Shown here piece by piece: positions 2,097-37,854 of a stretch of 49,526 bases of DNA. This DNA is from a phage, in the sequence record PZ296778.1; one strand, given 5' to 3'. How positions within the stretch are numbered: position 1 is the stretch's first letter; each line of letters opens with the position of its first letter. A program made the translations under genes and the position numbers. The notes beneath the pieces are model-generated. The model did not search any database, was not told the DNA's origin, and saw nothing but the letters and a program-made list of their open reading frames with translations.

Positions 2097-2125
2097 CACT
2101 AATTGCTAAAAAGTTATATAATCAA

Positions 2126-2149
2126 GGCTGGATTTTTCCAGCCTTTTTT
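2126..2149 (+). terminator. intrinsic terminator after large terminase gene
   Basis: GGCTGGA-tttt-TCCAGCC hairpin followed by T6. Confidence 0.7.
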
Positions 2150-2166
2150 ATTATGGAGATTTGACG

Positions 2167-3459
2167 ATGAGCGAAAAAACAAGGCTAGTTAAGGCCGATG
2201 GATACAACGAGATTTTCAAGGGTAGTAAGGGCAATGGGCGTGTAGAGTTGCCTTTCTTTATGCAAGGGTTCGAATACACCACGCACGCTGATTTTTACAT
2301 TCGCGACGGCCTAGCAAAACGAATTATCGACGTTGTTCCAGAAGAAATGGTGACGCCTGGATTTAATATTGATGGCGTGGAAGATGAGGAGAGTTTTAGA
2401 TCTTTGTGGGATGAGAAGCGACTAAACGATAAAATCATTGATGCGCTTTGCTGGTCGCGTCTTTTTGGTGGCGCTGCAATCGTGGCAATCGTTCAGGATG
2501 GCAGGTCGTTAAAGTCACCTGTAGCGCCTGGTGCAATCCTTGAAGATGTTCGCGTTTACGATCGCTTTCAGGTTAGGGTAGAAAAGCGCGAAACTAATCC
2601 ACGCAAGGTAAGATATGGTGAGCCATTAATTTACACCATTTCACCTGGTGCCGACTTGCCAGAATACCAGGTTCACTATTCGCGAGTCTGTATTATCGAC
2701 GGTGAGCGGCTACCAAATCAGCGGCGTCAATCAAATGATGGGTGGGGTGAGTCGATCCTGAATAAGAGACTTGTTGAGGCTATTTGTGATTATAACTACT
2801 GCGAAAACTTAGCAACTCAATTGTTGCGACGTAAGCAACAGGCGGTATGGAAAGTTAAAGGTCTTGCTGATCTTTGTGATGATGATGATGGTGTTAGTGC
2901 CGCACGTTTGCGACTTGCTCAAGTTGATGATGAGGGTGGCGTAGGCCGTGCGATCGGCATTGATGCGGAAGATGAGGAATATGATGTTTTAAATTCTGAT
3001 ATTTCTGCCGTCGATTCGTTCTTGGAAAAGAAGATGGATCGCATTGTATCTCTTTCCGGCATCCATGAAATCATCCTCAAAAACAAGAACGTTGGCGGTG
3101 TTAGCGCGAGCCAAAACACGGCGCTTGAAACCTTCTACAAGCTGATCGACAGAAAGCGAAAGGAAGAATACAAACCAATCCTTGAATTTCTGATCCCGTT
3201 CCTTATTCAAGAGGAAGAATGGAGCATTCAGTTTGCGCCGTTAAGCGTTCCAAGCGAAAAGGACCAGGCCGAAATCTTGAACAAGAACATTGATTCTTTG
3301 AGTAAGGCTATTGACGGTCAATTCATGGATGCAGAAGAGGCGCGCGACACATTGCGAGCCATTGCGCCTAACGTTAAACTAAAAGACGGCAATGACATTA
3401 AATTACCTGAGCAAGACGTAGAGCCGGAGCCAGGAACAACAGAGGGTAGCAATCAATGA
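2167..3459 (+). CDS. portal protein
   Basis: About 430 aa, directly downstream of the large terminase; acidic C-terminus; start moved to the ATG after RBS ggag (track start 2161 is TTG). Confidence 0.7.
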   Translation: MSEKTRLVKADGYNEIFKGSKGNGRVELPFFMQGFEYTTHADFYIRDGLAKRIIDVVPEEMVTPGFNIDGVEDEESFRSLWDEKRLNDKIIDALCWSRLFGGAAIVAIVQDGRSLKSPVAPGAILEDVRVYDRFQVRVEKRETNPRKVRYGEPLIYTISPGADLPEYQVHYSRVCIIDGERLPNQRRQSNDGWGESILNKRLVEAICDYNYCENLATQLLRRKQQAVWKVKGLADLCDDDDGVSAARLRLAQVDDEGGVGRAIGIDAEDEEYDVLNSDISAVDSFLEKKMDRIVSLSGIHEIILKNKNVGGVSASQNTALETFYKLIDRKRKEEYKPILEFLIPFLIQEEEWSIQFAPLSVPSEKDQAEILNKNIDSLSKAIDGQFMDAEEARDTLRAIAPNVKLKDGNDIKLPEQDVEPEPGTTEGSNQ

Positions 3460-4211
3460 TAGTGAAAGGCGTCGTTAAACAATGGCGCTTTCCTGAAGCA
3501 AGCGAGCGGCAATTGCGCCGCTCAATTCAGGAGGCGATAAGGGATCTTGTTGTGCTGATGCGCAGCAAAACAAAGGAAATGAAATTTGACGCGGACACCG
3601 AAGAAATCAACGCCGCAGAGGATGAGATTAGTAGCTTCGCGTTAAAGCTAATAGCTGGCATCGCCGCATCACTTCCGGCTATCGGTCTTGCTGTTTATAA
3701 ATTCAACGCGAAGCAATTTATTAACGTAGCCAAATCAACGGGAGGCAAGTCAAATTCAGCCGTTATCATCCTTATGGCTATTGGGGCCAATGCGAATGAG
3801 AGTTGGTATAGGACGCTATACGGTCAATGGCATGACATGACGATCGCATCTCTTCAAAAGCTATTTGGAAACATCGTGTCTGACTGGTCAACCAATATTA
3901 GATTGGCAAACTTTCGCGGAATGAGAGATAGCCAGGTTAATGAATTGGCTGGTAAGAGGTTCGCAGTGTATAGCTCTTGGGGTAAGACAAGGGCGGAAAA
4001 CATCATAGGCGCTTGGAATAGTAGACTCATGCGCCAGCGTCTTTATGATTCAAAAGTAACTCATTATTTTTGGCATGGTATGCTTGATGACAGAGAGCGA
4101 TTGCAGCATGTACAATGGGAAGGTAAGCGCATTGCGCTAGATTCTGAACATGATTTTCCTGGTGAGCCTTTCGGTTGTCGTTGTTGGGCCATACCAGATT
4201 GGAACAGTTAA
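3456..4211 (+). CDS. head morphogenesis / minor head protein (putative)
   Basis: 251 aa, start overlaps portal stop (ATGA); position typical of SPP1 gp7 / Mu F-like minor head proteins. Call is positional. Confidence 0.45.
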   Translation: MIVKGVVKQWRFPEASERQLRRSIQEAIRDLVVLMRSKTKEMKFDADTEEINAAEDEISSFALKLIAGIAASLPAIGLAVYKFNAKQFINVAKSTGGKSNSAVIILMAIGANANESWYRTLYGQWHDMTIASLQKLFGNIVSDWSTNIRLANFRGMRDSQVNELAGKRFAVYSSWGKTRAENIIGAWNSRLMRQRLYDSKVTHYFWHGMLDDRERLQHVQWEGKRIALDSEHDFPGEPFGCRCWAIPDWNS

Positions 4212-4221
4212 GAGGTATTAA

Positions 4222-5337
4222 ATGAAGGCAAAACAAAGATTTGATAGCGCCAAAGTAAAGGCGCACTTTGATGATAACGGGTTTTTAGTTGATCGCCCTA
4301 TCGTGGCGCGAATTGGTTTACAAGTCTATCAGACTCCTTTCGGTGAGCGCCGAGAATTTCGCCCTGCGTCAGAAGTATTCAAGGCCGACTCGCTCGCCAC
4401 CTTTGCAGGGAAGCCGGTCACGGTTGGTCACGTCACGGTAACGCCAGAAAACGCCGAAAAGGTTGTAGTTGGTTCTTGTGCTGGCGCTGGTGTGCCGAAC
4501 GGGATCGGCGTAGAGGTTCCGTTAAGCATTTACTCAAAACGAGCAATCGAAAGCGCAAAGAAGCGAGACACGGCGGAAATTTCAGTTGGTTATACATCGG
4601 TTGATATTGATAAACCAGGCTGGGGCAATAATAAAACTGGTGAGTACGTTTTCGATGAGGACGTTAGCGAAGACTGGAAACCTGATTCTCCTGATTGGGT
4701 TAAGTTTGATGCAATCCAGACTGAAATCAAGGTAAACCACATCGCGTTAGTTTTCCGAGGTCGAGCTGGCATTGCAAAATTAAACCTTGATAGCCAGCAA
4801 GATTTTCCGTATAGTGACGACGTTATTAACAACAAAGAGGATCAAATCATGACTGTAAAAATTAAACTGGATGGCGCTGTAGAGTTTGACGTGCCGAAAG
4901 CGGTTGCGGATCACATTGAATCACTGAAAGCTGATACCAAAGCGCAGAAAGAAAATGCTGACAGCCTGGAAGCTGAGCGAGACGCACTGCAAACCAAAGT
5001 AGATGGCATTCAGGATCAGATTGATGCCGCAGTCAAGAAGGCCAAAAAAGATGCCGAGCAATATGCTCAATTAGTGGCGGACGCTAAAGAGTTAGGCATC
5101 AAGTGCGACGGCCTGGATGCGAAAGCAATCAAGGTTGCATACATCAAGGAAGTTATGGGCAATGACGTTTCTGATAAAACTGATGCCTATATCGAAACAG
5201 CTTTCGACATCGCCAAAAACTCTGATAAAATGGCGGCGCAGCGTAAGAGCATTAAAGGTGACTCTTTCGCGAATGAAAAGCAGGATGACGCAGGTTCTAA
5301 GCTGAATCCTAACGCTCGTTTTGAGAAACTTAAATAA
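4222..5337 (+). CDS. capsid scaffolding protein (putative)
   Basis: 371 aa; C-terminal half is alanine/lysine/glutamate-rich and coiled-coil-like (AEQYAQLVADAKELGIK...); lies between head morphogenesis and capsid genes. Confidence 0.4.
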   Translation: MKAKQRFDSAKVKAHFDDNGFLVDRPIVARIGLQVYQTPFGERREFRPASEVFKADSLATFAGKPVTVGHVTVTPENAEKVVVGSCAGAGVPNGIGVEVPLSIYSKRAIESAKKRDTAEISVGYTSVDIDKPGWGNNKTGEYVFDEDVSEDWKPDSPDWVKFDAIQTEIKVNHIALVFRGRAGIAKLNLDSQQDFPYSDDVINNKEDQIMTVKIKLDGAVEFDVPKAVADHIESLKADTKAQKENADSLEAERDALQTKVDGIQDQIDAAVKKAKKDAEQYAQLVADAKELGIKCDGLDAKAIKVAYIKEVMGNDVSDKTDAYIETAFDIAKNSDKMAAQRKSIKGDSFANEKQDDAGSKLNPNARFEKLK

Positions 5338-5349
5338 GGAGTAATTAAA

Positions 5350-5859
5350 ATGGCTAAAATTGGAGCAAGTTATTTTGACACTATGGCGCGTGCGCTTCCT
5401 GGTCAGGTATCCGATACTTCGGCGTATAACATCGACGGCGCTTGTGTTCTTGACAAGGAAGACGGCATCCCAATCCTGGTTGGCGTGGCTGTTAAGCTAA
5501 AAGGAGTTGACTCAATGGGTAATAAGCTGATCGACGCTATTTCTGGTAGTGGTGATGTTCCTTATGGCGTTGGCATCCGTTCGCACTTTCAAACTACGGC
5601 TGATAATGGACGAATGGTTTATGAGGCTGGCGGCGGAATCAACGTTATGACAGAGGGCCGCGTTTGGATGGTTGGCGATGATACCGACAAGAGCAAAAAA
5701 CCATCGTATCGTGAGCCTGTAAAAATTGATGAAAACACTGGCAAGGTGAAAAGTGCTGGCACTATCAATACCAACTGGATTTACACGGGAGATAAAACCA
5801 CATTTGGAACTGGCGATGATGTGTTGACTTTGTTTGAAGTTCAGGTCTTCCCAAGCTAA
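5350..5859 (+). CDS. virion structural protein, paralog 1 (possible decoration protein)
   Basis: 169 aa; shares motifs with the next ORF (YNIDGACV / YNIDGTGV, VGIRSHF / VAIRSNI, TEGRVWMV / TRGVVWCL); strong RBS; followed by intrinsic terminator. Confidence 0.4.
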   Translation: MAKIGASYFDTMARALPGQVSDTSAYNIDGACVLDKEDGIPILVGVAVKLKGVDSMGNKLIDAISGSGDVPYGVGIRSHFQTTADNGRMVYEAGGGINVMTEGRVWMVGDDTDKSKKPSYREPVKIDENTGKVKSAGTINTNWIYTGDKTTFGTGDDVLTLFEVQVFPS

Positions 5860-5865
5860 AATTAA

Positions 5866-5889
5866 GGCGCTCGCTTGAGCGCCTTTTTT
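5866..5889 (+). terminator. intrinsic terminator
   Basis: GGCGCTC-gctt-GAGCGCC hairpin followed by T6. Confidence 0.75.
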
Positions 5890-5909
5890 ATTATGTAAGG
5901 AGAAATGAA

Positions 5910-6692
5910 ATGGCTAAAGATTATTCATCTGTTATGGGTCTTTCTTGCCCTGGTTGTTTGGTTGATTCTACTCGCTACAATATTGATGGAACTGGCGTTT
6001 GCGGATCTGAGTCGATCATTGCTGGCAAAGTTGTTTTCTTCAAAGAGAGAGTGGAAGGTTATAACATATTTGTTGATCATAAAGAGTATGATGCTGTGGT
6101 TGCTGGTGTTGCTATAAGGAGCAATATCACGACAACGGTTAACGAGGAAGACGGATACTCTGACTATAAGGAAGGAGATTCTATCAATATTTTAACAAGA
6201 GGGGTTGTATGGTGCTTAACTCAAACGATTGAGTCTGCGCCTGAACATGGCGATCTTGTTTATGTTAACAATGATGGTTTTGTAGCAAAAAGTGATGGCG
6301 ATGAAATCGTCGATGGCTGGATTTTTACTGGTGACTTCTACAAGTTTGATGAAACAATGAACATAGTCGGAGTCAGAATAACGCCGCTTCATCATAGAAA
6401 ATACCTTCTCACTGGTGCGATCATTGAGGCCGAAAATGGCTACATAGAGGGAACAGAGACGATTAATAACGTTCAATTAAAGGTAACGGTTGTTCCTACT
6501 TGGGCTGATGACAAAACGGGTCAGTGGACAATTACAAACGAGCAAGATCCAAAGGTTGCCAGCGTTAGCCGTACAGGTCTTGTTGTTCCTACTGGTGTAG
6601 GAGGCAGAGTTAACGTCAACTGGACTGCTAATGATGGTTCTGGAGTTGCTGACCAGTTTGATATTGTATTTACGAAAACCGCTGGCGAATAA
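5910..6692 (+). CDS. virion structural protein, paralog 2 with C-terminal extension
   Basis: 260 aa; N-terminal 150 aa paralogous to 5350-5859; RBS aaggag; the overlapping 5905 ORF in another frame is judged spurious. Confidence 0.4.
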   Translation: MAKDYSSVMGLSCPGCLVDSTRYNIDGTGVCGSESIIAGKVVFFKERVEGYNIFVDHKEYDAVVAGVAIRSNITTTVNEEDGYSDYKEGDSINILTRGVVWCLTQTIESAPEHGDLVYVNNDGFVAKSDGDEIVDGWIFTGDFYKFDETMNIVGVRITPLHHRKYLLTGAIIEAENGYIEGTETINNVQLKVTVVPTWADDKTGQWTITNEQDPKVASVSRTGLVVPTGVGGRVNVNWTANDGSGVADQFDIVFTKTAGE

Positions 6693-6717
6693 CTAATAGC
6701 ATAAAAAAACATTGCAC

Positions 6718-6736
6718 GTTTAACAAAAAGTGCTAT
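6718..6736 (-). promoter_or_regulatory. conserved intergenic motif copy R1 (inverted, variant)
   Basis: GTTTAACAAAAAGTGCTAT upstream of major capsid gene; followed by hairpin plus T-run and RBS. Confidence 0.6.
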
Positions 6737-6742
6737 CATCTA

Positions 6743-6768
6743 GGCCGTTACATTTAACGGCCTTTTTT
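6743..6768 (+). terminator. intrinsic terminator upstream of major capsid gene
   Basis: GGCCGTTA-cattt-TAACGGCC hairpin followed by T6; lies directly after motif copy R1. Confidence 0.7.
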
Positions 6769-6782
6769 ATGGAGGAAGCAAA

Positions 6783-7754
6783 ATGGCTAAAAAATACGAT
6801 GAATTAGATGCTACCATTGTAGCAAATCATTTACAGGTTCAGGGCGTTAAGGGTGATGCTTTTGATATGGGTATTTGGACCGCTCAAGAGCTACACAAGA
6901 TCCGTTCAACGGCATACGAGAAAGAGTATCCGGCAGGTTCCGCACTTCGCGTATTCCCTGTAACAAACGAGCTTTCTGATACTGATAAGACTTTTGAGTA
7001 TCAGACTTTTGATAAGGTTGGCTACGCGAAAATTATCGCCGACTACACCGACGATCTGCCGACCGTGGACGCGCTGATGACTTCTGAATTTGGCAAGGTG
7101 TTCCGCCTGGGTAACGCTTTTCCGATCTCCATTGATGAGATTAAAGCAGGTCAGCGAACTGGCAAGAGCCTGTCAACTCGCAAGGCTAACGCTGCGCAAA
7201 ATGCGCATGATCAGTTGATTAACTTCCTGGTGTTCAAAGGTTCCAAGCCTCATAAGATCGTTTCCGTTTTCGATCACCCTAACCTTACGAAAATTGTTTC
7301 TAAAGGATGGATGAGCCAGGATGGAAACACCAAGTTCCCTGATGTGGCAAGCGATGAACTGGAGGCTGCAATCGAGACTATCGAGGAAGTAACAAAAGGT
7401 CAGCACCGCGCGACTAACATCCTGATCCCGCCGTCCATGCGTAAAGTCTTGACGGTTCGAATGGAAAATACCACTGAAAGTTATCTTGAATACTTCCAGA
7501 AGCAAAACGGCGGAATCACTATCGACTCTATCGCAGAGCTTGAGGATATTGACGGCAAAGGTACGAAAGGTTGCTTGGTTTACGAAAAAGATCCAATGAA
7601 CATGAGCATTGAGATTCCAGAAGCGTTTAACATGCTTCCGGCGCAGCCAAAAGACCTTCATTTCAAGGTTCCTTGCACTTCCAAGTGTACTGGCCTTACG
7701 ATTTACCGTCCGTTTACGATGGTGCTTATTACTGGCTTGAAAAAGTCAGTTTAA
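6783..7754 (+). CDS. major capsid protein
   Basis: 323 aa; strong RBS ggagga; bracketed by intrinsic terminators; size and position typical of an HK97-fold major capsid protein. Confidence 0.7.
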   Translation: MAKKYDELDATIVANHLQVQGVKGDAFDMGIWTAQELHKIRSTAYEKEYPAGSALRVFPVTNELSDTDKTFEYQTFDKVGYAKIIADYTDDLPTVDALMTSEFGKVFRLGNAFPISIDEIKAGQRTGKSLSTRKANAAQNAHDQLINFLVFKGSKPHKIVSVFDHPNLTKIVSKGWMSQDGNTKFPDVASDELEAAIETIEEVTKGQHRATNILIPPSMRKVLTVRMENTTESYLEYFQKQNGGITIDSIAELEDIDGKGTKGCLVYEKDPMNMSIEIPEAFNMLPAQPKDLHFKVPCTSKCTGLTIYRPFTMVLITGLKKSV

Positions 7755-21248: not shown

Positions 21249-21267
21249 GTTTAGCAAAAAGTGCTAT
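21249..21267 (-). promoter_or_regulatory. conserved intergenic motif copy R3 (variant)
   Basis: GTTTAGCAAAAAGTGCTAT about 50 nt upstream of the minus-strand lipoprotein gene. Confidence 0.55.
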
Positions 21268-23783: not shown

Positions 23784-24236
23784 ATGCACGTTATTACAGG
23801 TGAGATTCGAAAAGAGCCAAAAGTAAAGCAAATGCCTAACGGCAGCACGCTATATGTTATTGATCTTTCCGAGCGATACAAAGACCGAGAAGGAAATTGG
23901 CAGTATACAAACTATGTGTTTTTCTTTAACGCGAAAACAGACGGCCTGAATGGTTGGTATGCCGAGGCGTTCCAGGTAGGCAAGGTTGTTTCTGTTTCCT
24001 GCGATACCTTGCGAGTTGAAACGCGAGAATACAACGGAAAGATTTACAGCACCGTGCAGCCTGGCGGATTTGCAAACTTGCTATTTAGCCAGAGAGGTGA
24101 AAGCCAGCAACAATATCAGCAGCGAACGCAAGGAGGCTGGGGGCAACCACAACAGCAACAGCAACAAAATACTCAACAGCAGCCGCAGCAAAGCAATCAG
24201 CCTCCGATTGACTTTGACGATGATATACCATTCTGA
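23784..24236 (+). CDS. ssb: single-stranded DNA-binding protein
   Basis: OB-fold-like N-terminus, Gln/Gly-rich linker, C-terminal acidic tail DFDDDIPF; start at MHVITGE after RBS ggagaaaacaaa. Confidence 0.85.
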   Translation: MHVITGEIRKEPKVKQMPNGSTLYVIDLSERYKDREGNWQYTNYVFFFNAKTDGLNGWYAEAFQVGKVVSVSCDTLRVETREYNGKIYSTVQPGGFANLLFSQRGESQQQYQQRTQGGWGQPQQQQQQNTQQQPQQSNQPPIDFDDDIPF

Positions 24237-24246
24237 TAACAAAAAG

Positions 24247-24270
24247 CCCCGCATATGCGGGGCATTTTTT
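24247..24270. terminator. bidirectional terminator between SSB (+) and tail fibre (-) genes
   Basis: CCCCGC-atat-GCGGGG hairpin with A-run upstream and T-run downstream. Confidence 0.75.
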
Positions 24271-25006
24271 AGTCTAACGTGGTTGGTTTGTTTACCAGTG
24301 CCGCTACAACCGCTTTTAGCTCGTCAATTTCTTTTCTCATCTCATCGTTTTCCGCTTTCAGTTTCTTAACGTGGTGAATCAGTGGAACAGTTAGGCGGTC
24401 ATACATAACGCCTTCCGCCACCATGCCATTACTTGAAGCAATGGCAGGATCTTCTCCTTCTTGCAGCGGTCGCCAGTGAACGTACTCCGGCGCAATTTCT
24501 CCAACCTCTTCCGCGATTAGCCCGTACCATCCCCAATCTTTACGGTCGCTTTCACAGGTTGACCGATACCACACAGGACGCATTTCAAGCATCAGATCCG
24601 CATATTCATCAATAACCGATTCTACGCTGCGCTTATAACGAGAATAGGAAGTGGAGCGTAAAACTTGCGACACTCCAGCATTTGGATCAAGCCATAAGTT
24701 TGCTGATTGAGAGGTTGTGTTTAGTCTAAACAAATAAAATTTCTCGTTACCAGTCAGGGGGTAAAAACTGCCACCATACCTTCCGCTATCCAACTCGGAC
24801 GATAGATCATTTTGTTTTAGATACAACTTCAACTTATTGTCAACATCAGTAGTTGATGCTTTTCCTGCAACATCCTGTTTTAGTGTCGAAACATCACTTT
24901 TCAGCTTCGTTATATCACCAGGAATAGTAGCAACATCCTGTTTTAGTGTTGAAACGTCATTTTTCAGCTTCGTTATATCACTAGGTATAACAGTGACTGT
25001 AGCCAT
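24269..25006 (-). CDS. tail fibre protein with C-terminal intramolecular chaperone (peptidase S74-like)
   Basis: 245 aa; N-terminal 21-aa tandem repeats (DITKLKNDVSTLKQDVA twice); C-terminal SDRKDWGWYG segment resembling the autoproteolytic chaperone of fibre proteins. Confidence 0.5.
   Translation of the reverse strand: MATVTVIPSDITKLKNDVSTLKQDVATIPGDITKLKSDVSTLKQDVAGKASTTDVDNKLKLYLKQNDLSSELDSGRYGGSFYPLTGNEKFYLFRLNTTSQSANLWLDPNAGVSQVLRSTSYSRYKRSVESVIDEYADLMLEMRPVWYRSTCESDRKDWGWYGLIAEEVGEIAPEYVHWRPLQEGEDPAIASSNGMVAEGVMYDRLTVPLIHHVKKLKAENDEMRKEIDELKAVVAALVNKPTTLD
24867..24985 (-). repeat. 63-bp imperfect tandem repeat in tail fibre gene
   Basis: Two about 63-bp units encoding the 21-aa repeat DITKLK(N/S)DVSTLKQDVA. 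Confidence 0.6.
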
Positions 25007-25018
25007 TTTCCTAACTCC

Positions 25019-25342
25019 TTAAGCCCATTCTCTAATAGGCTGATCTAACTCAACCACGTATCCATTAAAAATTACGGCATCAAACTTATCATCAATGATT
25101 CGCACATTAACGAAATAGCCGTCGTTCTTTCGCGCAATCTCCTCGCCATCGTCAGATCGTGCAATTACTGTATAAGTATTGCCGATTACATCGAGCAGGA
25201 TTGCATCCTGAATGGATTCGTTATCATCCCAATTAATTTTTCCTAAAAAGGCCGAAAACTCGGCCTTGTCTGAAAATTTTAATGTTAAATCACGCATTAA
25301 ACAATTTCCCCCAATTGATGATCTGTTAGTGCCTTGTGCCAT
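25019..25342 (-). CDS. hypothetical protein (tail fibre associated)
   Basis: 107-aa ORF between the two fibre genes, overlapping the upstream gene end. Confidence 0.35.
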   Translation of the reverse strand: MAQGTNRSSIGGNCLMRDLTLKFSDKAEFSAFLGKINWDDNESIQDAILLDVIGNTYTVIARSDDGEEIARKNDGYFVNVRIIDDKFDAVIFNGYVVELDQPIREWA

Positions 25343-27252
25343 ATACGGAAGTTTCTAACGTGCCCGAAAAGATGACGTTCTCCCGTAGTTGTTTGTCCGC
25401 CAATCCTTATAGTAGCCGTCGATCTTATGTATCTCCATTCCGCTTTTGATTCGCTTGATATTATGGAATTACTTACACAACAAGTATTGTAATCACTCTT
25501 TACTCTCATTCCCATGATCATCTTTTTTAGTTTCGCATTCTCGTAAACCCTTCGGTTTGAGTTACCTATGTCGCAATAAGGGAATCCGTCATTATCGCCT
25601 TCGGCAGACCCGAAAGCAAGAATTATTGCCGCTCCGGTTTGATGGCCGGATGTATCAAAAACACGTGGCGCAGCGTTTGGCGTTATACTCCAGTTTTTAT
25701 GAGCTTCCACAAGCACTGTAAACGGCAAATTGTAAAGGTTGTTTTTTATTGGCAATGTAACCATATCGCTTGCCCTTGTTGTCGGACTTTTATTAGTTAT
25801 AATGAATGATGAAGCGCAAGATCCAACCTCTACTTGAGGAGTTGTTAAATCCATAAAGCTATTTTCATCAAAAACTTCTCCTTGTTTATTAACGACCTGT
25901 ATTACCCCCCTAATGTAAGTTGATTCATCAGTAACTTTGTAAACTATTTCTGCAAAAATCCATTCCCCGTCTATGGTAGCGTTCTTTAGCACTATGTTTT
26001 TTGCGTCAACTCCAGAAGTTGCCACCCCTAAGTTATCGCAATCAATAATAGCAGAAGCAACAGAAGATAAAGGATCTCCCTTGTCAAATCTTGCTGCAAA
26101 TCTTACATTTTTCCCCTTAGCCCTAAAAGATATTGTAACTCCATCACCCTTTACAACTGCAATCTTATTTGCAGTAGGTCCAGCTATAATAGTGTAATAG
26201 CCTACGCCACCTAAATATTCCCCTGGTTTAAATGTTGCATACTTAAACCCCCTTTCATCAGTCTTAGTTTCACCTCTTTCTAATCCTGGATTTGGATTCC
26301 ATGATTCAGGCTTATTTGAATTTACAAAATAGTTTGTTCTCTGCCCTTCAATCAAAAGACCATCCTTTTCAAATCTAGGTTCATCAATAGCAGCATCAGT
26401 AAGCAACCCAGACTTATTAATGTAAGTAGCGGTTGATGCACGTTTAAACTTAACAATATTGTCACCTGGCATCGTTATCTCATCATCACCTATGACAATC
26501 TTTTTGTATGACGGCGAGAATCCGGTGATCATATCCAGGGAATCATTAAATGGTATCCACACGTCAGGTAGAGGCTGCAATAAATCTTTGTAAGGTTCTG
26601 CGGCCTGTTTTGCGTATTCCTCCGCTTGATCTCGCGCACTTTCAGCGCCTGCCTTTGCGGTGTTCGCAGCATCACGCGCAGTTTCAGCGCCTTTTCTTGC
26701 AGTTTCAGCGCCAGTCTTTGCAGTGTTTGCAGCGTCGCGCGCGGATTCAGCGGCAGCCTTTGCAGTGTCAGCACCTTTCTTGCTATTCTCTGCATTTGTT
26801 GCGCTTGTCTTTGCGTTATTCTCGCTAGTTTTAGCTGCCTTCTGGCTTGCTGCGGCTGCGTCAGCATTTGTCTTTACGTCTTCCTGGATCTTCTGTAGCT
26901 TATCCCAATCAAAATCCTTGATGATCTCAATAAATCCAGCAAACTCCGATTCCTTCCCCTGGTAATAACGCAACGTTTCCGCTACGTCTTGCGCAAGACC
27001 GTCAACCGTTAACGAGTCATGAAGCAAGATCAGGTAATTTGTCTTCTGTACTACCGCGCCTCCAGTAGTAATTGCGCGAATGCTTGTATCGCTAATCACT
27101 TCTGTAATCACAGCAGCTTGCAAAGGTTGAGCAAGAAAGAAAATAGTTGCACCTGGGCGAATCAAGGTTAATTGCTCACGCCATTTTGTACCGTAACCAG
27201 TTACATAACCTTGCGCGTCCATAGACGCTTGGCCTTGTCTGTAAATCGCCAT
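25297..27252 (-). CDS. tail fibre protein
   Basis: About 650 aa; start moved to ATG after perfect RBS aggagg (track start is a GTG inside the motif); alanine-rich repeat block (AETARKGAETARDAANTAKAGAESARD) then a variable C-terminal domain. Confidence 0.55.
   Translation of the reverse strand: MAIYRQGQASMDAQGYVTGYGTKWREQLTLIRPGATIFFLAQPLQAAVITEVISDTSIRAITTGGAVVQKTNYLILLHDSLTVDGLAQDVAETLRYYQGKESEFAGFIEIIKDFDWDKLQKIQEDVKTNADAAAASQKAAKTSENNAKTSATNAENSKKGADTAKAAAESARDAANTAKTGAETARKGAETARDAANTAKAGAESARDQAEEYAKQAAEPYKDLLQPLPDVWIPFNDSLDMITGFSPSYKKIVIGDDEITMPGDNIVKFKRASTATYINKSGLLTDAAIDEPRFEKDGLLIEGQRTNYFVNSNKPESWNPNPGLERGETKTDERGFKYATFKPGEYLGGVGYYTIIAGPTANKIAVVKGDGVTISFRAKGKNVRFAARFDKGDPLSSVASAIIDCDNLGVATSGVDAKNIVLKNATIDGEWIFAEIVYKVTDESTYIRGVIQVVNKQGEVFDENSFMDLTTPQVEVGSCASSFIITNKSPTTRASDMVTLPIKNNLYNLPFTVLVEAHKNWSITPNAAPRVFDTSGHQTGAAIILAFGSAEGDNDGFPYCDIGNSNRRVYENAKLKKMIMGMRVKSDYNTCCVSNSIISSESKAEWRYIRSTATIRIGGQTTTGERHLFGHVRNFRIWHKALTDHQLGEIV
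26600..26870 (-). repeat. short-period repeat block encoding an alanine-rich region of the tail fibre
   Basis: Reiterated tttcagcgcc / tttgcagtgt units; encodes repeated AETAR/DAANTAK-type peptide units. Confidence 0.55.
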
Positions 27253-27269
27253 TTGTAAAATCCTCCTAA

Positions 27270-27289
27270 ATAGCACTTTTTGCTAATGA
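27270..27289 (+). promoter_or_regulatory. conserved intergenic motif copy F1 (variant)
   Basis: ATAGCACTTTTTGCTAATGA abutting the RBS of the minus-strand tail fibre gene. Confidence 0.55.
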
Positions 27290-27317
27290 CAATGCAGATA
27301 ATAGCATTTTCAAGTGC

Positions 27318-27342
27318 AAAAAAAAACCCCGCATAAGCGGGG
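27318..27342 (-). terminator. intrinsic terminator after primase gene
   Basis: On the minus strand, CCCCGC-ttat-GCGGGG hairpin followed by T9. Confidence 0.75.
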
Positions 27343-27358
27343 CAATACTAGCGGAGTT

Positions 27359-28288
27359 TTATAGCAGTGATTCGGGCTTGTAGAGTTTTCTTTCTACTCC
27401 CTGTTTAAAATTATCGTTAACAGGCATCATTATGTCAAGCCCTCTTTCCTCTGCCGCGATTATCACATCACGATCATCTTTCCGGCAGACTACGCGCATT
27501 CTTCTTTCTCCTTTATATCTATGCGCAACCATTTCAAGATTTGAAGGAGTAAAACAGGCCCACACCTCTTGACCAGTTGATAAATGAACATGCTGAGAAT
27601 CAACCCAATCAAGGCACAAATAGATCGTCTTATCTGTACTACCTGTTTTAACAACAGATCCGCGCGTGTAGTCGCGAGCTAAAAACCAATCCTTTCCATC
27701 CTCATCAATGAAAAGCACGTTACACATTTCATCATCCAGCCCGTCATCATGCACCAGGTGACAAGGTAGCGCGTGAATGTATCGACCATCCTTGACGCCG
27801 CAATCATAATGACAATCTTCCGGCGGATATATCCCCTCATAAACGCTTAAAGGTGTGCGATCGAATTTTAATGTTTTTGCCATCACTTTTTCGCAACATT
27901 CATGACTTGCCTGTTTCCCGAACGAGTAACCAGAAGAACGCGAAGCGCGTTTGTTTGCTCTGATCCTGTAATCTTGTGGCACTTTTCCGAGGAAGCGGCC
28001 CAAAATGTTTATGGCCTCGCTGTAAGGTTCGCCAGTTAATTTCATTAACCAACCGATCCCCGTGTCGTTGCCGCACACGTTGCAGATCGCGCCGCCGTCG
28101 CCCTCTTCATTTAGCTTATCAGTCCATCTAAAACGATCCTTACCGCCGCAGTGTGGGCAAGGTTGATGCTTTTTGTTGAAAACATCGCTATGCAGCCCGC
28201 AAATGCTTTGTAGTGCTTCACGCCATAACCCCTTCATATATGGCAAAACATCTTCTTTCTGATAGGTCATAAAGTTTTCAGTATTCAT
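27359..28288 (-). CDS. DNA primase (zinc-ribbon type, putative)
   Basis: Zinc-binding CPHCGG...CNVCG; start moved to MNTENF after RBS gagg; intrinsic terminator separates it from the upstream HTH gene; co-located with the helicase. Confidence 0.5.
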   Translation of the reverse strand: MNTENFMTYQKEDVLPYMKGLWREALQSICGLHSDVFNKKHQPCPHCGGKDRFRWTDKLNEEGDGGAICNVCGNDTGIGWLMKLTGEPYSEAINILGRFLGKVPQDYRIRANKRASRSSGYSFGKQASHECCEKVMAKTLKFDRTPLSVYEGIYPPEDCHYDCGVKDGRYIHALPCHLVHDDGLDDEMCNVLFIDEDGKDWFLARDYTRGSVVKTGSTDKTIYLCLDWVDSQHVHLSTGQEVWACFTPSNLEMVAHRYKGERRMRVVCRKDDRDVIIAAEERGLDIMMPVNDNFKQGVERKLYKPESLL

Positions 28289-28301
28289 GGCAAACCTCAA
28301 T

Positions 28302-28337
28302 AAAAAAGCCCAGCAAATATTATCATTTCGCTGGGCC
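28302..28337 (-). terminator. intrinsic terminator after HTH gene
   Basis: On the minus strand, GCCCAGC...GCTGGGC hairpin followed by T6, then the primase RBS. Confidence 0.6.
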
Positions 28338-28343
28338 TTATCA

Positions 28344-28820
28344 TTAGCTATTCGTGCTGTTATCACCTTTGTAGAATCTTCCGCCTGGTTCGTAGTCTGA
28401 ATTTTTGACTACGCGCAACATTTCGTATTTGTCGCAACGGGTAGTAAGAGGCTTGCCGTTAGAATCAAACCGCAGATCTGGACGACAAAACGAGGCGCGG
28501 TATCCTTTGCATCCATTATATTTGTAGTCGTTATGCACCTTTTGTGCTCCAGCGGCTGAAATCATACCACGCTTTCGCCATTGGTTAACGACTTGCTGAG
28601 ATACGCGCAGACGTCGAGCCATAGCAGGAACGCCGCCGTAATACTCGATCAGAATGTCAAGGCGAGATTTCAGGCTTGCTTTTACCTCATCTCGCAGGAT
28701 AAGAAATCCGGTTCGGTGTTTTCGTGGTTTTTTGTCTTTACCTCGTCGCGTTCCGTTGTTACCGTTAATAGTGCGCTTGTCGATCTCACCCGTAGATACT
28801 GCAATTCGTGCATCTTTCAT
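28344..28820 (-). CDS. HTH DNA-binding protein (putative regulator)
   Basis: 158 aa; Xre-like helix-turn-helix (ARRLRVSQQVVNQWRKRG); RBS gaggtg; transcribed divergently from the helicase. Confidence 0.45.
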   Translation of the reverse strand: MKDARIAVSTGEIDKRTINGNNGTRRGKDKKPRKHRTGFLILRDEVKASLKSRLDILIEYYGGVPAMARRLRVSQQVVNQWRKRGMISAAGAQKVHNDYKYNGCKGYRASFCRPDLRFDSNGKPLTTRCDKYEMLRVVKNSDYEPGGRFYKGDNSTNS

Positions 28821-36166: not shown

Positions 36167-37854
36167 CCCAGCAGTATTGGATTGACAAAAATAACACCAT
36201 TAATCACACAAACATAATTTCTTTCTTCCAGCATTGGCAGTAAGTGCCCTTCTATCCTTTTCATTACGCCAGCCTGACCAACGAAAGGTTTTACCTTTCT
36301 CGCTGATTCGTACAGGGCGCGGATATTCAGAATCCCTTTATTAGCCTTGCCGTGCCTCGTGATCAATTCAATCAATTTACCCATTTCAGCATCATCACCA
36401 GCATAACCAGAAGCATTGGCGGCGCTAATGTATGTTTTGCTCAATTCCTGAAACATGATCAACGCCTCTTGCATTGTTTCCACGTCGATCTCTTTCGACT
36501 TCTGCGGGTATCCGGCAGGATTAAACCAGTTACGGATAACATGCAGGACGGAAGCAAGCCTGATCACCTGTTTATCCATTTTACCCAGCGCACCGCGTAA
36601 CATTGTATGAGAATACTTTCCTCCGTCTGCAAGATGCGGTTCCATATCCTGGCGAGCAATGTTGAGCACTCGCATAGCTGAACGGCTTATTTTCAGCGAT
36701 ATATTTGATTCGCTCATGATGTTATGCACCAATTGATAATATTGGGCTTTCAATTCAGAATCCACCGCCTCATAGGTAGAATCACCATTTTCATCAATGA
36801 ATGAGCGACGGCCTAAGAATGATTCCTCGCGGACCAACAAAAAACGCTCACTAACACCGATGCCTCGCGATCCAGCGTCCATGATTCCGCTTATCGTTTC
36901 ATCCTGGGCTATAACGCTCATACATCCAAGCGCGCGAAAACTCATATTATTGTCAGCATTAGCGCGGGCAATTGATACGTGACCATTATCCCACGCCTTA
37001 AGCACTAACTCACTGTTAGTCTTCCTTTCGCTATTTGCATAGGTCAAGCCTAACAGACTGTTAATACTTGTTGCTTCATCAGATATTACGGCAAAGTTAC
37101 CTTGCTTGTTGTTGATTTTCGCCAAGCCTTCTGGAGTTGTATCTGAGACAGGAAAAGTTATATCACACATTTTTTCCAGTTTTTCCTCCAGATCCTCTTT
37201 TTCCTGGTATAGAGATTCCATATCAGCGCCGGATCTTTCGCTTTTCATCTCCTTTGCAAGACCTGCCAGCTTTGCCTGTATTTTCTTTCTTTCCTTGCGG
37301 CGTTGCTCGTTGATCTTCTCAACTTCCGCAATCATCGGAGCAATAGCCATGCTGTTGATCGCAGATTTACCAGTTGACGGCGGCTGGCTTGTAACGACGT
37401 AAAGCGCAGTCGGCTGATCGGTTCCGTGATAGTCAACCGTAAAGCGTCCAAGCATAGCGGCAGAAATGCAGCCGATAAAGTGCATGTAAGCCGATGATTC
37501 AGGGAATTGAACGGATCGCGCAATGCTGCGTGATAACTTGCCGACAACATCAATATCATTACCAAGAGAAATAACGGGGTAGCGATCGTGACCGCTATTC
37601 ACATCCGATTCAGGGAATTGAACGGATCGCGCAATGCTGCGTGATAACTTGCCGACAACATCAATATCATTACCAAGAGAAATAACGGGGTAGCGATCGT
37701 GACCGCTATTCACATCCTTTACGTCGCCCCAAAAGCTGGACGACTGGCGATAGCCGTTAGCCTGAATTGATACGCGAACTGGCGAAAGGTTCTGGCTTTC
37801 AGCCATAGCGATTATTTGTTGTGGAGTTAATTTGTTCGTTTCTAATGAAAACAT
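36163..37854 (-). CDS. P-loop NTPase of unknown function (DUF3987-like?)
   Basis: 563 aa; Walker A-like PSTGKS and Walker B-like FAVISDEAT; N-terminus carries a perfect 37-aa tandem duplication; RBS aaggag. Confidence 0.5.
   Translation of the reverse strand: MFSLETNKLTPQQIIAMAESQNLSPVRVSIQANGYRQSSSFWGDVKDVNSGHDRYPVISLGNDIDVVGKLSRSIARSVQFPESDVNSGHDRYPVISLGNDIDVVGKLSRSIARSVQFPESSAYMHFIGCISAAMLGRFTVDYHGTDQPTALYVVTSQPPSTGKSAINSMAIAPMIAEVEKINEQRRKERKKIQAKLAGLAKEMKSERSGADMESLYQEKEDLEEKLEKMCDITFPVSDTTPEGLAKINNKQGNFAVISDEATSINSLLGLTYANSERKTNSELVLKAWDNGHVSIARANADNNMSFRALGCMSVIAQDETISGIMDAGSRGIGVSERFLLVREESFLGRRSFIDENGDSTYEAVDSELKAQYYQLVHNIMSESNISLKISRSAMRVLNIARQDMEPHLADGGKYSHTMLRGALGKMDKQVIRLASVLHVIRNWFNPAGYPQKSKEIDVETMQEALIMFQELSKTYISAANASGYAGDDAEMGKLIELITRHGKANKGILNIRALYESARKVKPFVGQAGVMKRIEGHLLPMLEERNYVCVINGVIFVNPILLG
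37496..37717 (-). repeat. perfect 111-bp in-frame tandem duplication inside the P-loop gene
   Basis: Two identical adjacent 111-bp units (37496-37606 and 37607-37717) encoding a duplicated 37-aa segment. Confidence 0.85.

What the first reader, a model, noticed from the sequence alone, without database searches (positions are those of the whole stretch)
24269..27252. Minus-strand tail fibre module separate from the main tail operon, one fibre with a self-cleaving chaperone-like C-terminus
Two fibre-like genes sit between the recombination and replication modules, bounded by bidirectional terminators and headed by an inverted motif copy at the RBS of the upstream gene. The 245-aa protein has 21-aa N-terminal tandem repeats and a C-terminal SDRKDW segment resembling the autoproteolytic intramolecular chaperone of fibre and tailspike proteins. 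The 650-aa protein has an alanine-rich repeat block and a variable C-terminal domain, so it is a likely host-range determinant.
Basis: partly seen in the sequence, partly recalled or inferred. Interest (0 to 1): 0.4.

Follow-up and report, generated by a model that had tools for sequence, protein, structure and literature searches.

The report
Three-gene lateral tail fibre cassette
This is the ordinary side-fibre locus of a T1-like coliphage: three tightly coupled genes, not two, that most likely build one composite fibre whose small end piece carries a self-cleaving folding domain.

Summary
The window is a Warwickvirus (Drexlerviridae) coliphage, 98.7% identical here to phage tunzivis. Coordinates 24269-27252 (minus strand) are the family's known lateral tail fibre (LTF) locus between ssb and primase.

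- There are three genes, not two. They are a 651-aa LTF, an overlooked 92-aa gene (stop/start overlap TAATG) and the 245-aa protein.
- The 245-aa protein does carry a peptidase-S74 intramolecular-chaperone domain. Its Ser-Lys dyad is S120/K125 (STS|YSRYK), not "SDRKDW".
- The variable part of the LTF is a lectin/CBM-like beta-sandwich (aa 312-470). The last 180 aa are conserved.
- Only the downstream terminator is bidirectional.

The same cassette recurs in other Drexlerviridae, Queuovirinae, Dhillonvirus, T5-like phages and lambdoid E. coli prophages. It consists of a conserved LTF C-terminal scaffold, a ~92-aa protein, and an S74 fibre starting M-x-T-x-T-x-IP-x-DIT-x-LK. In 76 of 78 IMG/VR loci the ~92-aa gene is followed by that fibre.

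It is homologous to IrisVonRoten gp22/23/24, whose distal fibre was already modelled as docking on a proximal fibre. The 245-aa protein is therefore most likely a minimal distal fibre (mature ~119 aa).

The 92-aa family remains uncharacterised. Cleavage and assembly are inferred, not shown. Interest is low to moderate.

The parts
27326..27343 (-). Intrinsic-terminator-like hairpin (GCCCCGC-TTAT-GCGGGGT + T9) ending the primase transcript. It is the upstream boundary of the fibre operon and is unidirectional.
27270..27286 (-). Copy (TTAGCAAAAAGTGCTAT) of a 17-nt motif repeated across the genome, placed immediately 5' of the AGGAGG RBS (27262-27267) of the LTF gene. It has the same orientation and placement as the copies before structural genes at 6720 and 10474.
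25297..27252 (-). Proximal lateral tail fibre protein, 651 aa. Domains: virion anchor (aa 1-120, nt 26893-27252); Ala-rich coiled-coil shaft with 21-aa repeats (aa 121-221, nt 26590-26892); conserved scaffold, first part (aa 222-311, nt 26320-26589); variable CBM/lectin-like beta-sandwich (aa 312-470, nt 25843-26319); conserved scaffold, second part, ending GGQTTTGERHLFGHVRNFRIWHKALTDHQLGEIV (aa 471-651, nt 25300-25842).
25843..26319 (-). Hypervariable insert of the LTF (aa 312-470). Identity to seven homologues is 23-54% here, against 58-81% in the flanking blocks. It coincides with the only confidently modelled domain (pLDDT about 90), a ConA/CBM-like jelly roll.
25019..25297 (-). 92-aa protein of unknown function (phrog_1361). 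It is translationally coupled to the LTF (TAATG) and always follows the conserved LTF scaffold in other phages.
24269..25006 (-). Distal mini-fibre, 245 aa. Domains: N-terminal adaptor MATVTVIPSDITKLKND (aa 1-17, nt 24956-25006); two 21-aa heptad-type repeats (aa 7-48, nt 24863-24988); short tip (aa about 70-119); S74 intramolecular chaperone domain (aa 120-245, nt 24272-24649) with the S120 codon at 24647-24649 and the K125 codon at 24632-24634.
24246..24263 (.). Bidirectional terminator-like hairpin (GCCCCGC-ATAT-GCGGGGC with A/T runs on both sides), shared by the convergent ssb and distal-fibre genes.

Best explanation
The three genes encode one composite lateral tail fibre.

The 651-aa protein is the proximal part. 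Its N-terminal anchor fixes it to the tail tip and an Ala-rich trimeric coiled coil forms the shaft. Its C-terminal region is a conserved scaffold into which an exchangeable lectin/CBM-like glycan-binding domain is inserted.

The 245-aa protein is a minimal distal fibre. Its conserved N-terminal adaptor of about 17 aa docks it to the conserved end of the proximal fibre. Heptad repeats form a short trimeric stalk. The C-terminal S74 domain drives trimer folding and then removes itself by Ser120/Lys125-dependent cleavage between T119 and S120, leaving a mature subunit of about 119 aa.

The 92-aa protein, made by translational coupling with the LTF, acts on the conserved LTF scaffold. It is either a small structural connector or cap, or an assembly factor.

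The fibre as a whole serves reversible primary adsorption to surface glycans and is dispensable on rough K-12.

Shown here: gene structure, homologies, the conserved dyad, the cassette linkage and the mosaic pattern. Inferred: cleavage, docking, the role of the 92-aa protein and the ligand.
For: - S74 domain. A family profile matches the C-terminal end of DT57C LtfA (8hqz_d, E=2.8e-10), S16 gp37 and the MYRF ICA domain. S120, K125 and G162/I164/A165 are invariant in 21 homologues. Every adaptor-bearing distal fibre examined has S-x4-K-x2-[IV] about 40 aa before G-x-IA-[EQ].
- Cassette linkage. In 78 IMG/VR loci holding the 92-aa gene, 76 have a downstream gene starting with M..T.IP.DI[TK].LK, at a 9-nt gap in 74. 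The LTF C-terminal motif was checked in 77 of them: a strict pattern matched 62, and in spot checks of three misses, two carried a variant of the motif (YHLFGH) or an overlapping stop and one (L032) had a different C-terminal end. All five independent look-ups of adaptor-bearing S74 proteins (in prophage, T5-like and Queuovirinae contigs) show the same three genes.
- Variable cargo. The adaptor is joined to distal fibres of 227-583 aa complete with their S74 domain (151-583 aa if truncated variants are counted), carrying unrelated tips.
- Homology to a described system. IrisVonRoten gp22/gp23/gp24 are homologous to all three proteins (58%, 49%, and 76% over the adaptor). PMC11990801 models gp24 as a distal fibre attached to the proximal fibre, which has a protruding galectin-like domain.
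- Fused versions exist. DT57C LtfA carries the gp24-type distal part in one chain, and phrog_3299 aligns the whole 245 aa to the end of a 1385-position profile.
- Purifying selection. dN/dS is 0.18-0.34 for the 245-aa gene and 0.05-0.38 for its S74 part. Length variants of 245, 231 and 224 aa differ by 14 or 21 aa, that is whole heptads.
- Tight coupling: TAATG overlap, and a stop/RBS overlap.
Against: - No direct evidence of cleavage, of virion incorporation or of contacts between the proteins. No multimer modelling could be run.
- The Pfam S74 hit of the window protein alone is below the gathering score (20.2 vs 22 bits).
- The mature tip (about 50 aa between stalk and cleavage site) is very small and 91-96% conserved among Warwickviruses. 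That is unusual for an O-antigen-binding tip.
- Some relatives keep the LTF and the 92-aa gene but lack a distal fibre (Lambda_ev203, L014, rV5-like JeffSchatz). The 92-aa protein therefore cannot be only a connector for the distal piece.
- In phage orkinos the distal gene is split into two ORFs, so it is dispensable on K-12 at least.
- The conserved LTF scaffold was modelled poorly as a monomer (pLDDT below 50 for aa about 225-305 and much of aa 485-651), so its architecture is unknown.
Confidence: 0.6

Rival explanations
1. The 245-aa protein is a stand-alone, trans-acting chaperone for the 651-aa fibre, as some GenBank records name it ('putative lateral tail fiber chaperone', 'chaperone of endosialidase'). 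On this view it is not a virion component.
For: - The LTF has no S74 domain and no Tfa-like partner of its own.
- The mature part of the 245-aa protein is tiny and conserved.
- The gene always accompanies this LTF scaffold.
- GenBank annotations use this name in PeterMerian, VogelGryff, JK16 and HMD-P4.
Against: - S74 domains characterised so far act in cis on the polypeptide that carries them (endoNF, T5 pb1; own knowledge). PMC4728585 describes them only as autocleavable C-terminal chaperone domains of receptor-recognition proteins.
- Proteins with the same adaptor and the same gene position carry large receptor-binding domains, for example IrisVonRoten gp24 at 574 aa. The family is therefore one of fibres.
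- Heptad-preserving length variation of the stalk suggests a structural shaft.
- LTF and the 92-aa gene exist without this gene in Lambda_ev203 and L014, so the LTF can apparently fold without it.
Confidence: 0.15
2. The 245-aa protein is an independent second fibre or whisker. It attaches to some other virion site through its N-terminal adaptor, possibly via the 92-aa protein, rather than to the end of the 651-aa fibre.
For:
- Weak similarity of the N-terminal repeats to trimeric coiled coils of other virion appendages: the P22 gp26 needle, fibritin and Lpp.
- The linkage data cannot tell which partner the adaptor binds.
Against: - The adaptor-bearing gene travels with the LTF scaffold and the 92-aa gene across phage families whose tails are otherwise unrelated (Drexlerviridae, T5-like, Queuovirinae, lambdoid). 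The only common partner is the cassette itself.
- Fused single-chain versions exist.
- The published AlphaFold-Multimer model for the IrisVonRoten homologues places the distal fibre on the proximal one.
Confidence: 0.15
3. The 245-aa ORF is a non-functional remnant, left when a recombination event replaced the middle of an ancestral single-chain fibre.
For: - It aligns over its full length to the C-terminal end of a 1385-position fibre family profile.
- In phage orkinos it is split into two ORFs.
- The LTF locus is highly mosaic.
Against: - dN/dS is 0.18-0.34 and the catalytic dyad is intact.
- It has its own RBS and ATG at a conserved spacing.
- The same N-terminus and gene order are kept in 76 of 78 loci and at 55-60% protein identity across phage families.
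Confidence: 0.05

Closest known systems
Lateral tail fibre genes gp22-gp23-gp24 of Tequintavirus IrisVonRoten (Bas32), described in PMC11990801
   Same: - Same gene order and overlaps.
- The gp22 C-terminal region is 58% identical to LTF aa 192-651.
- gp23 is 49% identical to the 92-aa protein.
- The first 17 aa of gp24 are 76% identical to the adaptor, and gp24 ends in an S74 domain.
- The paper models gp24 as a distal fibre on a proximal fibre with a protruding galectin-like domain.
   Different: - The virion anchor differs (T5 pb1-type vs Drexlerviridae-type).
- gp24 is a 574-aa 'T-shaped' fibre with two receptor-binding domains that targets O16. Here the distal protein has only about 50 aa between stalk and cleavage site.
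- The text passages of that paper retrieved here do not discuss the 92-aa protein; the paper was not read in full.
Peptidase S74 / C-terminal intramolecular chaperone domains (K1F endosialidase, T5 pb1, DT57C LtfA, S16 gp37, MYRF ICA)
   Same: - C-terminal position.
- A Ser-x4-Lys dyad at the domain border.
- A G-x-IA-[EQ]-E core and a terminal helical segment.
- Profile-level homology.
   Different: - The cleavage motif is degenerate (STS|YSRYK instead of S|DxxLK).
- The passenger is unusually short (119 aa).
- The protein is encoded as a separate small gene.
Branched lateral fibres of T5-like phage DT57C (LtfA + LtfB; PMC4728585, PMC10713586)
   Same: A second fibre protein with an S74 domain hangs on a first, tail-anchored fibre. 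The locus is mosaic and dispensable on rough hosts.
   Different: - DT57C LtfA has its own S74 domain and there is no 92-aa gene.
- The LtfB N-terminus (MSRPLMPKSG...) is unrelated to the adaptor found here.
- DT57C LtfA contains, in one chain, what IrisVonRoten splits into gp22 and gp24.
Drexlerviridae lateral tail fibre locus (PMC8594841) and N-terminal anchors of Klebsiella siphovirus depolymerases (PDB 7LZJ, 7VYV)
   Same: - Position between the recombination and primase genes.
- Only the 5' end of the large gene is conserved across the family.
- LTF aa 1-175 are about 65% identical to the solved depolymerase N-termini.
   Different: The distal part here is a lectin-like scaffold plus a docked mini-fibre, instead of an enzymatic beta-helix depolymerase.

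Membership tests
Peptidase S74 / intramolecular chaperone domain (PF13884) | Match to the Pfam model at its gathering score | tested here: inconclusive
   The window protein scores E=7.6e-4 and 20.2 bits against a cut-off of 22, over aa 123-176 and profile positions 4-57 of 58. Many homologues at 45-65% identity carry a precomputed PF13884 hit.
Peptidase S74 / intramolecular chaperone domain (PF13884) | Homology to proteins with solved S74/ICA domains | tested here: met
   A profile of 21 homologues hits DT57C LtfA residues 953-1074 (E=2.8e-10), S16 long tail fibre 6f45 (E=8e-4) and MYRF 7dc3 (E=9e-4).
Peptidase S74 / intramolecular chaperone domain (PF13884) | Catalytic Ser-x4-Lys dyad at the N-terminal border of the domain | tested here: met
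   S120 and K125 are invariant in the 21-sequence alignment. The same spacing is found in all ten distal fibres compared.
Peptidase S74 / intramolecular chaperone domain (PF13884) | Autoproteolytic release after trimer folding | not testable with these tools
   Needs protein chemistry or virion mass spectrometry.
Drexlerviridae lateral tail fibre locus | Location between the recombination/ssb genes and the primase, with a conserved N-terminal anchor on the largest gene | tested here: met
   Gene order. The anchor is 88-100% identical among Warwickviruses while downstream parts vary. The locus is described in PMC8594841.
Split proximal/distal fibre cassette (IrisVonRoten gp22-24 type) | All three gene products homologous and in the same order and spacing | tested here: met
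   The cassette also recurs in 76 of 78 IMG/VR loci and in five independent contig look-ups.
Split proximal/distal fibre cassette (IrisVonRoten gp22-24 type) | Physical docking of the distal trimer on the proximal fibre | not testable with these tools
   No multimer prediction was available. The monomer model of the conserved scaffold has low confidence.
DT57C-type branched fibre (LtfA/LtfB) | Both fibre proteins end in an S74 domain, and LtfB has a phiEco32 gp15-like N-terminus | tested here: not met
   The 651-aa LTF has no S74 match and ends in the conserved GGQT...RHLFGH...W scaffold. The DT57C LtfB N-terminus is unrelated to the adaptor.
Separate tail fibre assembly chaperones (Tfa/gp38-like), considered for the 92-aa protein | Sequence or fold similarity to a known fibre chaperone family | tested here: not met
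   - No Pfam or NCBIfam family, and only the unknown-function phrog_1361.
- No significant PDB sequence hit (best E=0.16).
- No fusions to fibre proteins among 68 representatives.

The most novel reading that the evidence does not exclude
The conserved LTF C-terminal scaffold, the uncharacterised ~92-aa protein (phrog_1361) and the ~17-aa N-terminal adaptor M-x-T-x-T-x-IP-x-DIT-x-LK may together form a portable 'socket, pin and plug' joint. Unrelated tailed phages would use it to swap self-folding (S74-bearing) distal fibre tips without touching the tail-anchored part. The carriers are Drexlerviridae, Dhillonvirus, Queuovirinae, T5-like phages and lambdoid prophages. On this reading the 92-aa protein is a structural virion component, a new small connector family. 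The 245-aa protein of this phage would be the minimal plug, little more than adaptor, stalk and chaperone.
Probability: 0.35. Interest if true: 0.45.

Novelty: new member of a known kind. Interest (0 to 1): 0.25.

Why it matters
Practical value is modest.
- It corrects database names. The 245-aa family is labelled variously 'chaperone', 'tail fiber protein' or 'hypothetical'. The 92-aa family is 'hypothetical' in all but a few of the phage records listed; IrisVonRoten names it 'tail fiber protein'.
- It pinpoints which segment of the large fibre is the exchangeable, probably glycan-binding part (aa 312-470).
- It defines a recurring three-gene cassette with a short, recognisable adaptor. If the docking model holds, this is a natural plug-in point for engineering the host range of T1-like, T5-like and lambdoid phages.

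It does not change what is understood about tail fibres in general.

Tried and rejected
- Search for 'Rosetta-stone' fusions of the 92-aa domain. A full HMMER scan of 1.84 billion representatives gave 68 hits, nearly all of them short proteins or fragments (36-150 aa). The three large hits are repeat proteins (C-type lectin, PKD, TPR) and are spurious.
- Test of whether DT57C LtfB uses the same adaptor. It does not.
- Model of LTF aa 225-651. Only the central domain is reliable and the conserved flanks have pLDDT below 50. No conclusion was drawn on the 'socket'.
- Own promoter for the operon. The consensus scan finds none in the 73-nt gap. Promoter-like hits in the region are not above shuffles (12 vs 10.5).
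- Remnant/pseudogene reading of the 245-aa ORF. Rejected on dN/dS and cassette conservation.
- Literature. No paper in the library uses 'lateral tail fiber chaperone'. None combines 'chaperone of endosialidase' with mass spectrometry and 'Escherichia phage'.
Full report
**Identity of the window.** A megablast of 24000-27500 finds 120 phage records. The best is Escherichia phage tunzivis (98.7% over 100%), followed by orkinos, Phunderstruck, JLBYU19 and Shigella phage JK16. All five are Warwickvirus, Tempevirinae, Drexlerviridae. The plus-strand block 1-20002 holds the structural genes up to a 1209-aa J-like protein. The recombination genes (exonuclease, Erf-like, SSB) follow on the plus strand up to 24236. 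Then comes a minus-strand block with the fibre genes, the primase (27359-28366) and a regulator. This is the position at which Maffei et al. (PMC8594841) place the lateral tail fibre (LTF) locus of Drexlerviridae. They note that only the 5' end of the largest gene is conserved, and that such fibres may consist of one or of several proteins.

**Checking the observation.** Both ORFs exist as described.
- The large one starts at ATG 27252, nine bases after an AGGAGG. It encodes 651 aa, the same length as its closest homologues.
The 107-aa ORF 25019-25342 matches phrog_1361 only from its residue 16, and all homologues are 91-93 aa starting MRDLTLKF. Its ATG at 25297 overlaps the LTF stop (TAATG). 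Its own stop overlaps the GGAG of the next gene, whose ATG follows 12 nt later. The three genes therefore form one tightly coupled unit.
- Tandem Repeats Finder confirms the 63-nt, two-copy repeat in the 245-aa gene and the Ala-rich 63-nt repeats in the LTF.
- The hairpin at 24246-24263 scores as a terminator on both strands. The one at 27326-27343 scores on the minus strand only.
- The 'inverted motif' is real. TTAACAAAAAGTGCTAT occurs 17 times (up to 3 mismatches) against 0.23 expected, and the copy at 27270-27286 abuts the LTF RBS.

**The 245-aa protein.**
- Pfam gives Peptidase_S74 just below threshold (20.2 vs 22 bits, aa 123-176) among many coiled-coil hits to the two ends.
- PHROGs aligns the whole protein to the last 240 positions of a 1385-position fibre family and to several 'tail fiber' families.
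- A database search returns 93 relatives. Many are small stand-alone proteins of 220-270 aa from coliphages and E. coli prophages, most with a precomputed PF13884 hit. Their names range from 'chaperone of endosialidase' and 'putative lateral tail fiber chaperone' to 'tail fiber protein'.
- In an alignment of 21 of them, the invariant residues are S120, K125, G162, I164, A165, P173 and V176.
- A profile of that alignment hits the C-terminal, predicted autocleavable chaperone region of DT57C LtfA (E=2.8e-10), the S16 long tail fibre and the MYRF ICA domain.
- The dyad is therefore S120/K125 in RSTS|YSRYK, with the same Ser-x4-Lys spacing as in the canonical SDxxLK motif. SDRKDW (aa 153-158) lies 33 residues further on, inside the domain.
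- Cleavage before S120 would leave a 119-aa mature chain: adaptor, two 21-aa heptad-type repeats, a linker and a tip of about 50 aa.
- Relatives have 224-, 231- and 245-aa versions that differ by 21 or 14 residues in the repeat region. These are whole heptads.

**The 651-aa protein.**
- Residues 1-175 are about 65% identical to the N-termini of solved Klebsiella siphovirus depolymerases (7LZJ, 7VYV). This is the family's virion anchor plus the start of the coiled coil.
- The C-terminal 427 aa have 2477 relatives. These are joined to Drexlerviridae-type, lambda Stf-type (PF08400) or T5-type N-termini.
- NCBIfam places a 'GTA spike fiber' domain at aa 300-494.
- Comparison with six Warwickviruses shows mosaicism centred on this domain. 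Aa 231-500 are 51-53% identical to tunus, PeterMerian and SLUR29. The anchor, the shaft, aa 501-651, the 92-aa protein and the 245-aa protein stay at 86-100% against those three phages.
- Across eight phages of four groups, identity to the window falls to 23-54% for aa 312-491 (23-44% for aa 312-461). It is 58-81% on both sides, and the last 40 aa are kept even where aa 501-610 are replaced, as in G3B1 and a prophage.
- The 'variable C-terminal domain' is therefore an internal, probably glycan-binding insert in a conserved scaffold.

**The cassette.**
- Looking up the contigs of five different adaptor-bearing S74 proteins gave the same arrangement each time: a large fibre, a gene of 89-92 aa, and the S74 protein. 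The contigs were a lambdoid E. coli prophage next to an integrase, two T5-like contigs and two roughly 60-kb Queuovirinae-like contigs.
- A pattern scan of IMG/VR with the 92-aa alignment returned 80 loci, of which 78 contain the gene. In 76 the next gene starts with M..T.IP.DI[TK].LK, and 74 of these have a 9-nt gap. One exception lacks the downstream DNA.
- Nearly all of these loci have the ...GGQ...HLFGH..N.R.W motif at the end of the upstream gene. A strict pattern matched 62 of the 77 loci with enough upstream DNA, and spot checks of three misses showed the motif in a variant form in two and a different C-terminus in one, L032.
- tblastn finds the 92-aa gene in 179 phage records. These include Warwickvirus and other Drexlerviridae, Nonagvirus and Seuratvirus, Dhillonvirus, lambdoid phages and many T5-like phages. 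rV5-like myoviruses show about 28% identity. The gene is almost always annotated 'hypothetical'.
- The downstream fibres complete with their S74 domain range from 227 to 583 aa with unrelated middles (truncated or S74-less ORFs of 151-227 aa also occur). They share the adaptor (mean 66% identity over 16 aa) and an S74 domain with the dyad.

**Relation to published work.** IrisVonRoten (Bas32, Tequintavirus) carries the homologous trio gp22/gp23/gp24. Humolli et al. (PMC11990801) model gp24 as a 'T-shaped' distal fibre with an intramolecular chaperone. In their model it attaches to a proximal fibre whose C-terminus bears a protruding galectin-like domain. The phage infects K-12 with restored O16 antigen. 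The kind of system is therefore already described. The passages of that paper that I retrieved do not discuss the 92-aa protein. DT57C shows the fused alternative: its LtfA contains, in one chain, the sequence that follows the adaptor in gp24. Its branched partner LtfB uses a different N-terminus and there is no 92-aa gene.

**Mechanism proposed.**
- Shown: three coupled genes; S74 homology with an intact dyad; the linkage of scaffold, 92-aa gene and adaptor; an exchangeable lectin-like insert; purifying selection on the small gene (dN/dS 0.18-0.34).
- Inferred: the 245-aa protein trimerises through its S74 domain, cleaves at T119|S120 and docks by its adaptor on the conserved end of the LTF. 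This gives a composite fibre for reversible glycan binding.
- The 92-aa protein is tied to the scaffold rather than to the distal piece. Lambda_ev203, L014 and rV5-like phages keep it without an adaptor-bearing fibre. It could be a connector or cap, or an assembly factor. Fold and profile searches do not discriminate.
- The main rival is that the small protein is a trans chaperone, as some records call it. Three things weaken it: the cis action of known S74 domains, the large receptor-binding relatives with the same adaptor, and natural LTF-plus-92-aa loci that lack it.
- The split gene in orkinos fits a fibre that is dispensable on rough K-12. The BASEL papers report the same for lateral fibres in general.

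**Verdict.** This is an ordinary, correctly recognised lateral tail fibre locus in a new isolate of a well-sampled genus. The open points are the function of the 92-aa family and whether the adaptor/scaffold pair is a portable joint.

Noticed in passing
window 2093, 6720, 10474, 21251, 27270, 28832, 31321, 32392, 35637, 37910, 38584, 40501, 41862, 42325, 43317, 44767, 47402: A 17-nt motif, TTAACAAAAAGTGCTAT, occurs 17 times against 0.23 expected. It falls into two placement classes. In the first it is in the sense orientation, 11-46 nt before the start codon; this applies to genes at 6783 and 10505, the LTF and the regulator gene at 28820. The copy at 21251 is in the same orientation, but the nearest listed start is farther away. 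In the second it is antisense, followed by a GC hairpin, ATAAT and an RBS, before most early or replication-side genes. It is probably a phage promoter or operator element.
   Followed up: partly
window 37496-37717: A perfect 111-nt tandem duplication (two identical copies) lies in the minus-strand block between 36163 and 38527.
   Followed up: no
window 27410-27438 (minus strand): A sigma-70-like site matching 11 of 12 positions (TTGACA-17-GATAAT) sits inside the 3' end of the primase gene, about 70 nt before the terminator hairpin that precedes the LTF gene. If real, LTF expression would need read-through. Promoter-like hits in the region are not above chance (12 vs 10.5).
   Followed up: no
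L096 (Lambda_ev203) 1983-4585; L014; L004 2957-3244: Some lambdoid loci keep the LTF and the 92-aa gene but lack the S74 distal fibre. The next gene is then a hydrophobic protein of about 97 aa (MDISPLLHALCAV...). The same protein follows the distal fibre gene in the prophage locus L004.
   Followed up: partly
L091 (phage orkinos) 570-1308: In orkinos (98% identical to the window here) the distal fibre gene is annotated as two overlapping ORFs of 168 and 86 aa. This is either a frameshift or a sequencing error. The phage was isolated on rough K-12.
   Followed up: partly
L095 (rV5-like JeffSchatz) 4001-4333: A distant (about 28% identical) 110-aa homologue of the 92-aa protein directly follows the 1479-aa lateral fibre gene of Vequintavirus phages, with stop/start overlap. 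The next gene has no adaptor motif.
   Followed up: partly
L094 (DT57C) 2189-5419 versus L088 (IrisVonRoten) 5289-7013: DT57C LtfA contains internally the sequence NLSDLADRAAAWLNVRPIGSTPLAGDP... In IrisVonRoten gp24 this sequence comes right after the 17-aa adaptor. This is a natural fused versus split pair of the same fibre.
   Followed up: partly
phage records MG065692 (Campylobacter phage C13), MG065676 (Campylobacter phage A116), OR847733 and OR848352 (Listeria phages): Records named as Campylobacter or Listeria phages carry the coliphage-type 92-aa gene at 50-100% identity to T5-like or E. coli versions. The host labels or the assemblies look doubtful.
   Followed up: no
window 25019-25342 and 25297-27276: The mechanical ORF calls over-extend two genes. 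The 107-aa ORF really starts at its Met16 (25297). The 659-aa GTG ORF really starts at ATG 27252.
   Followed up: yes
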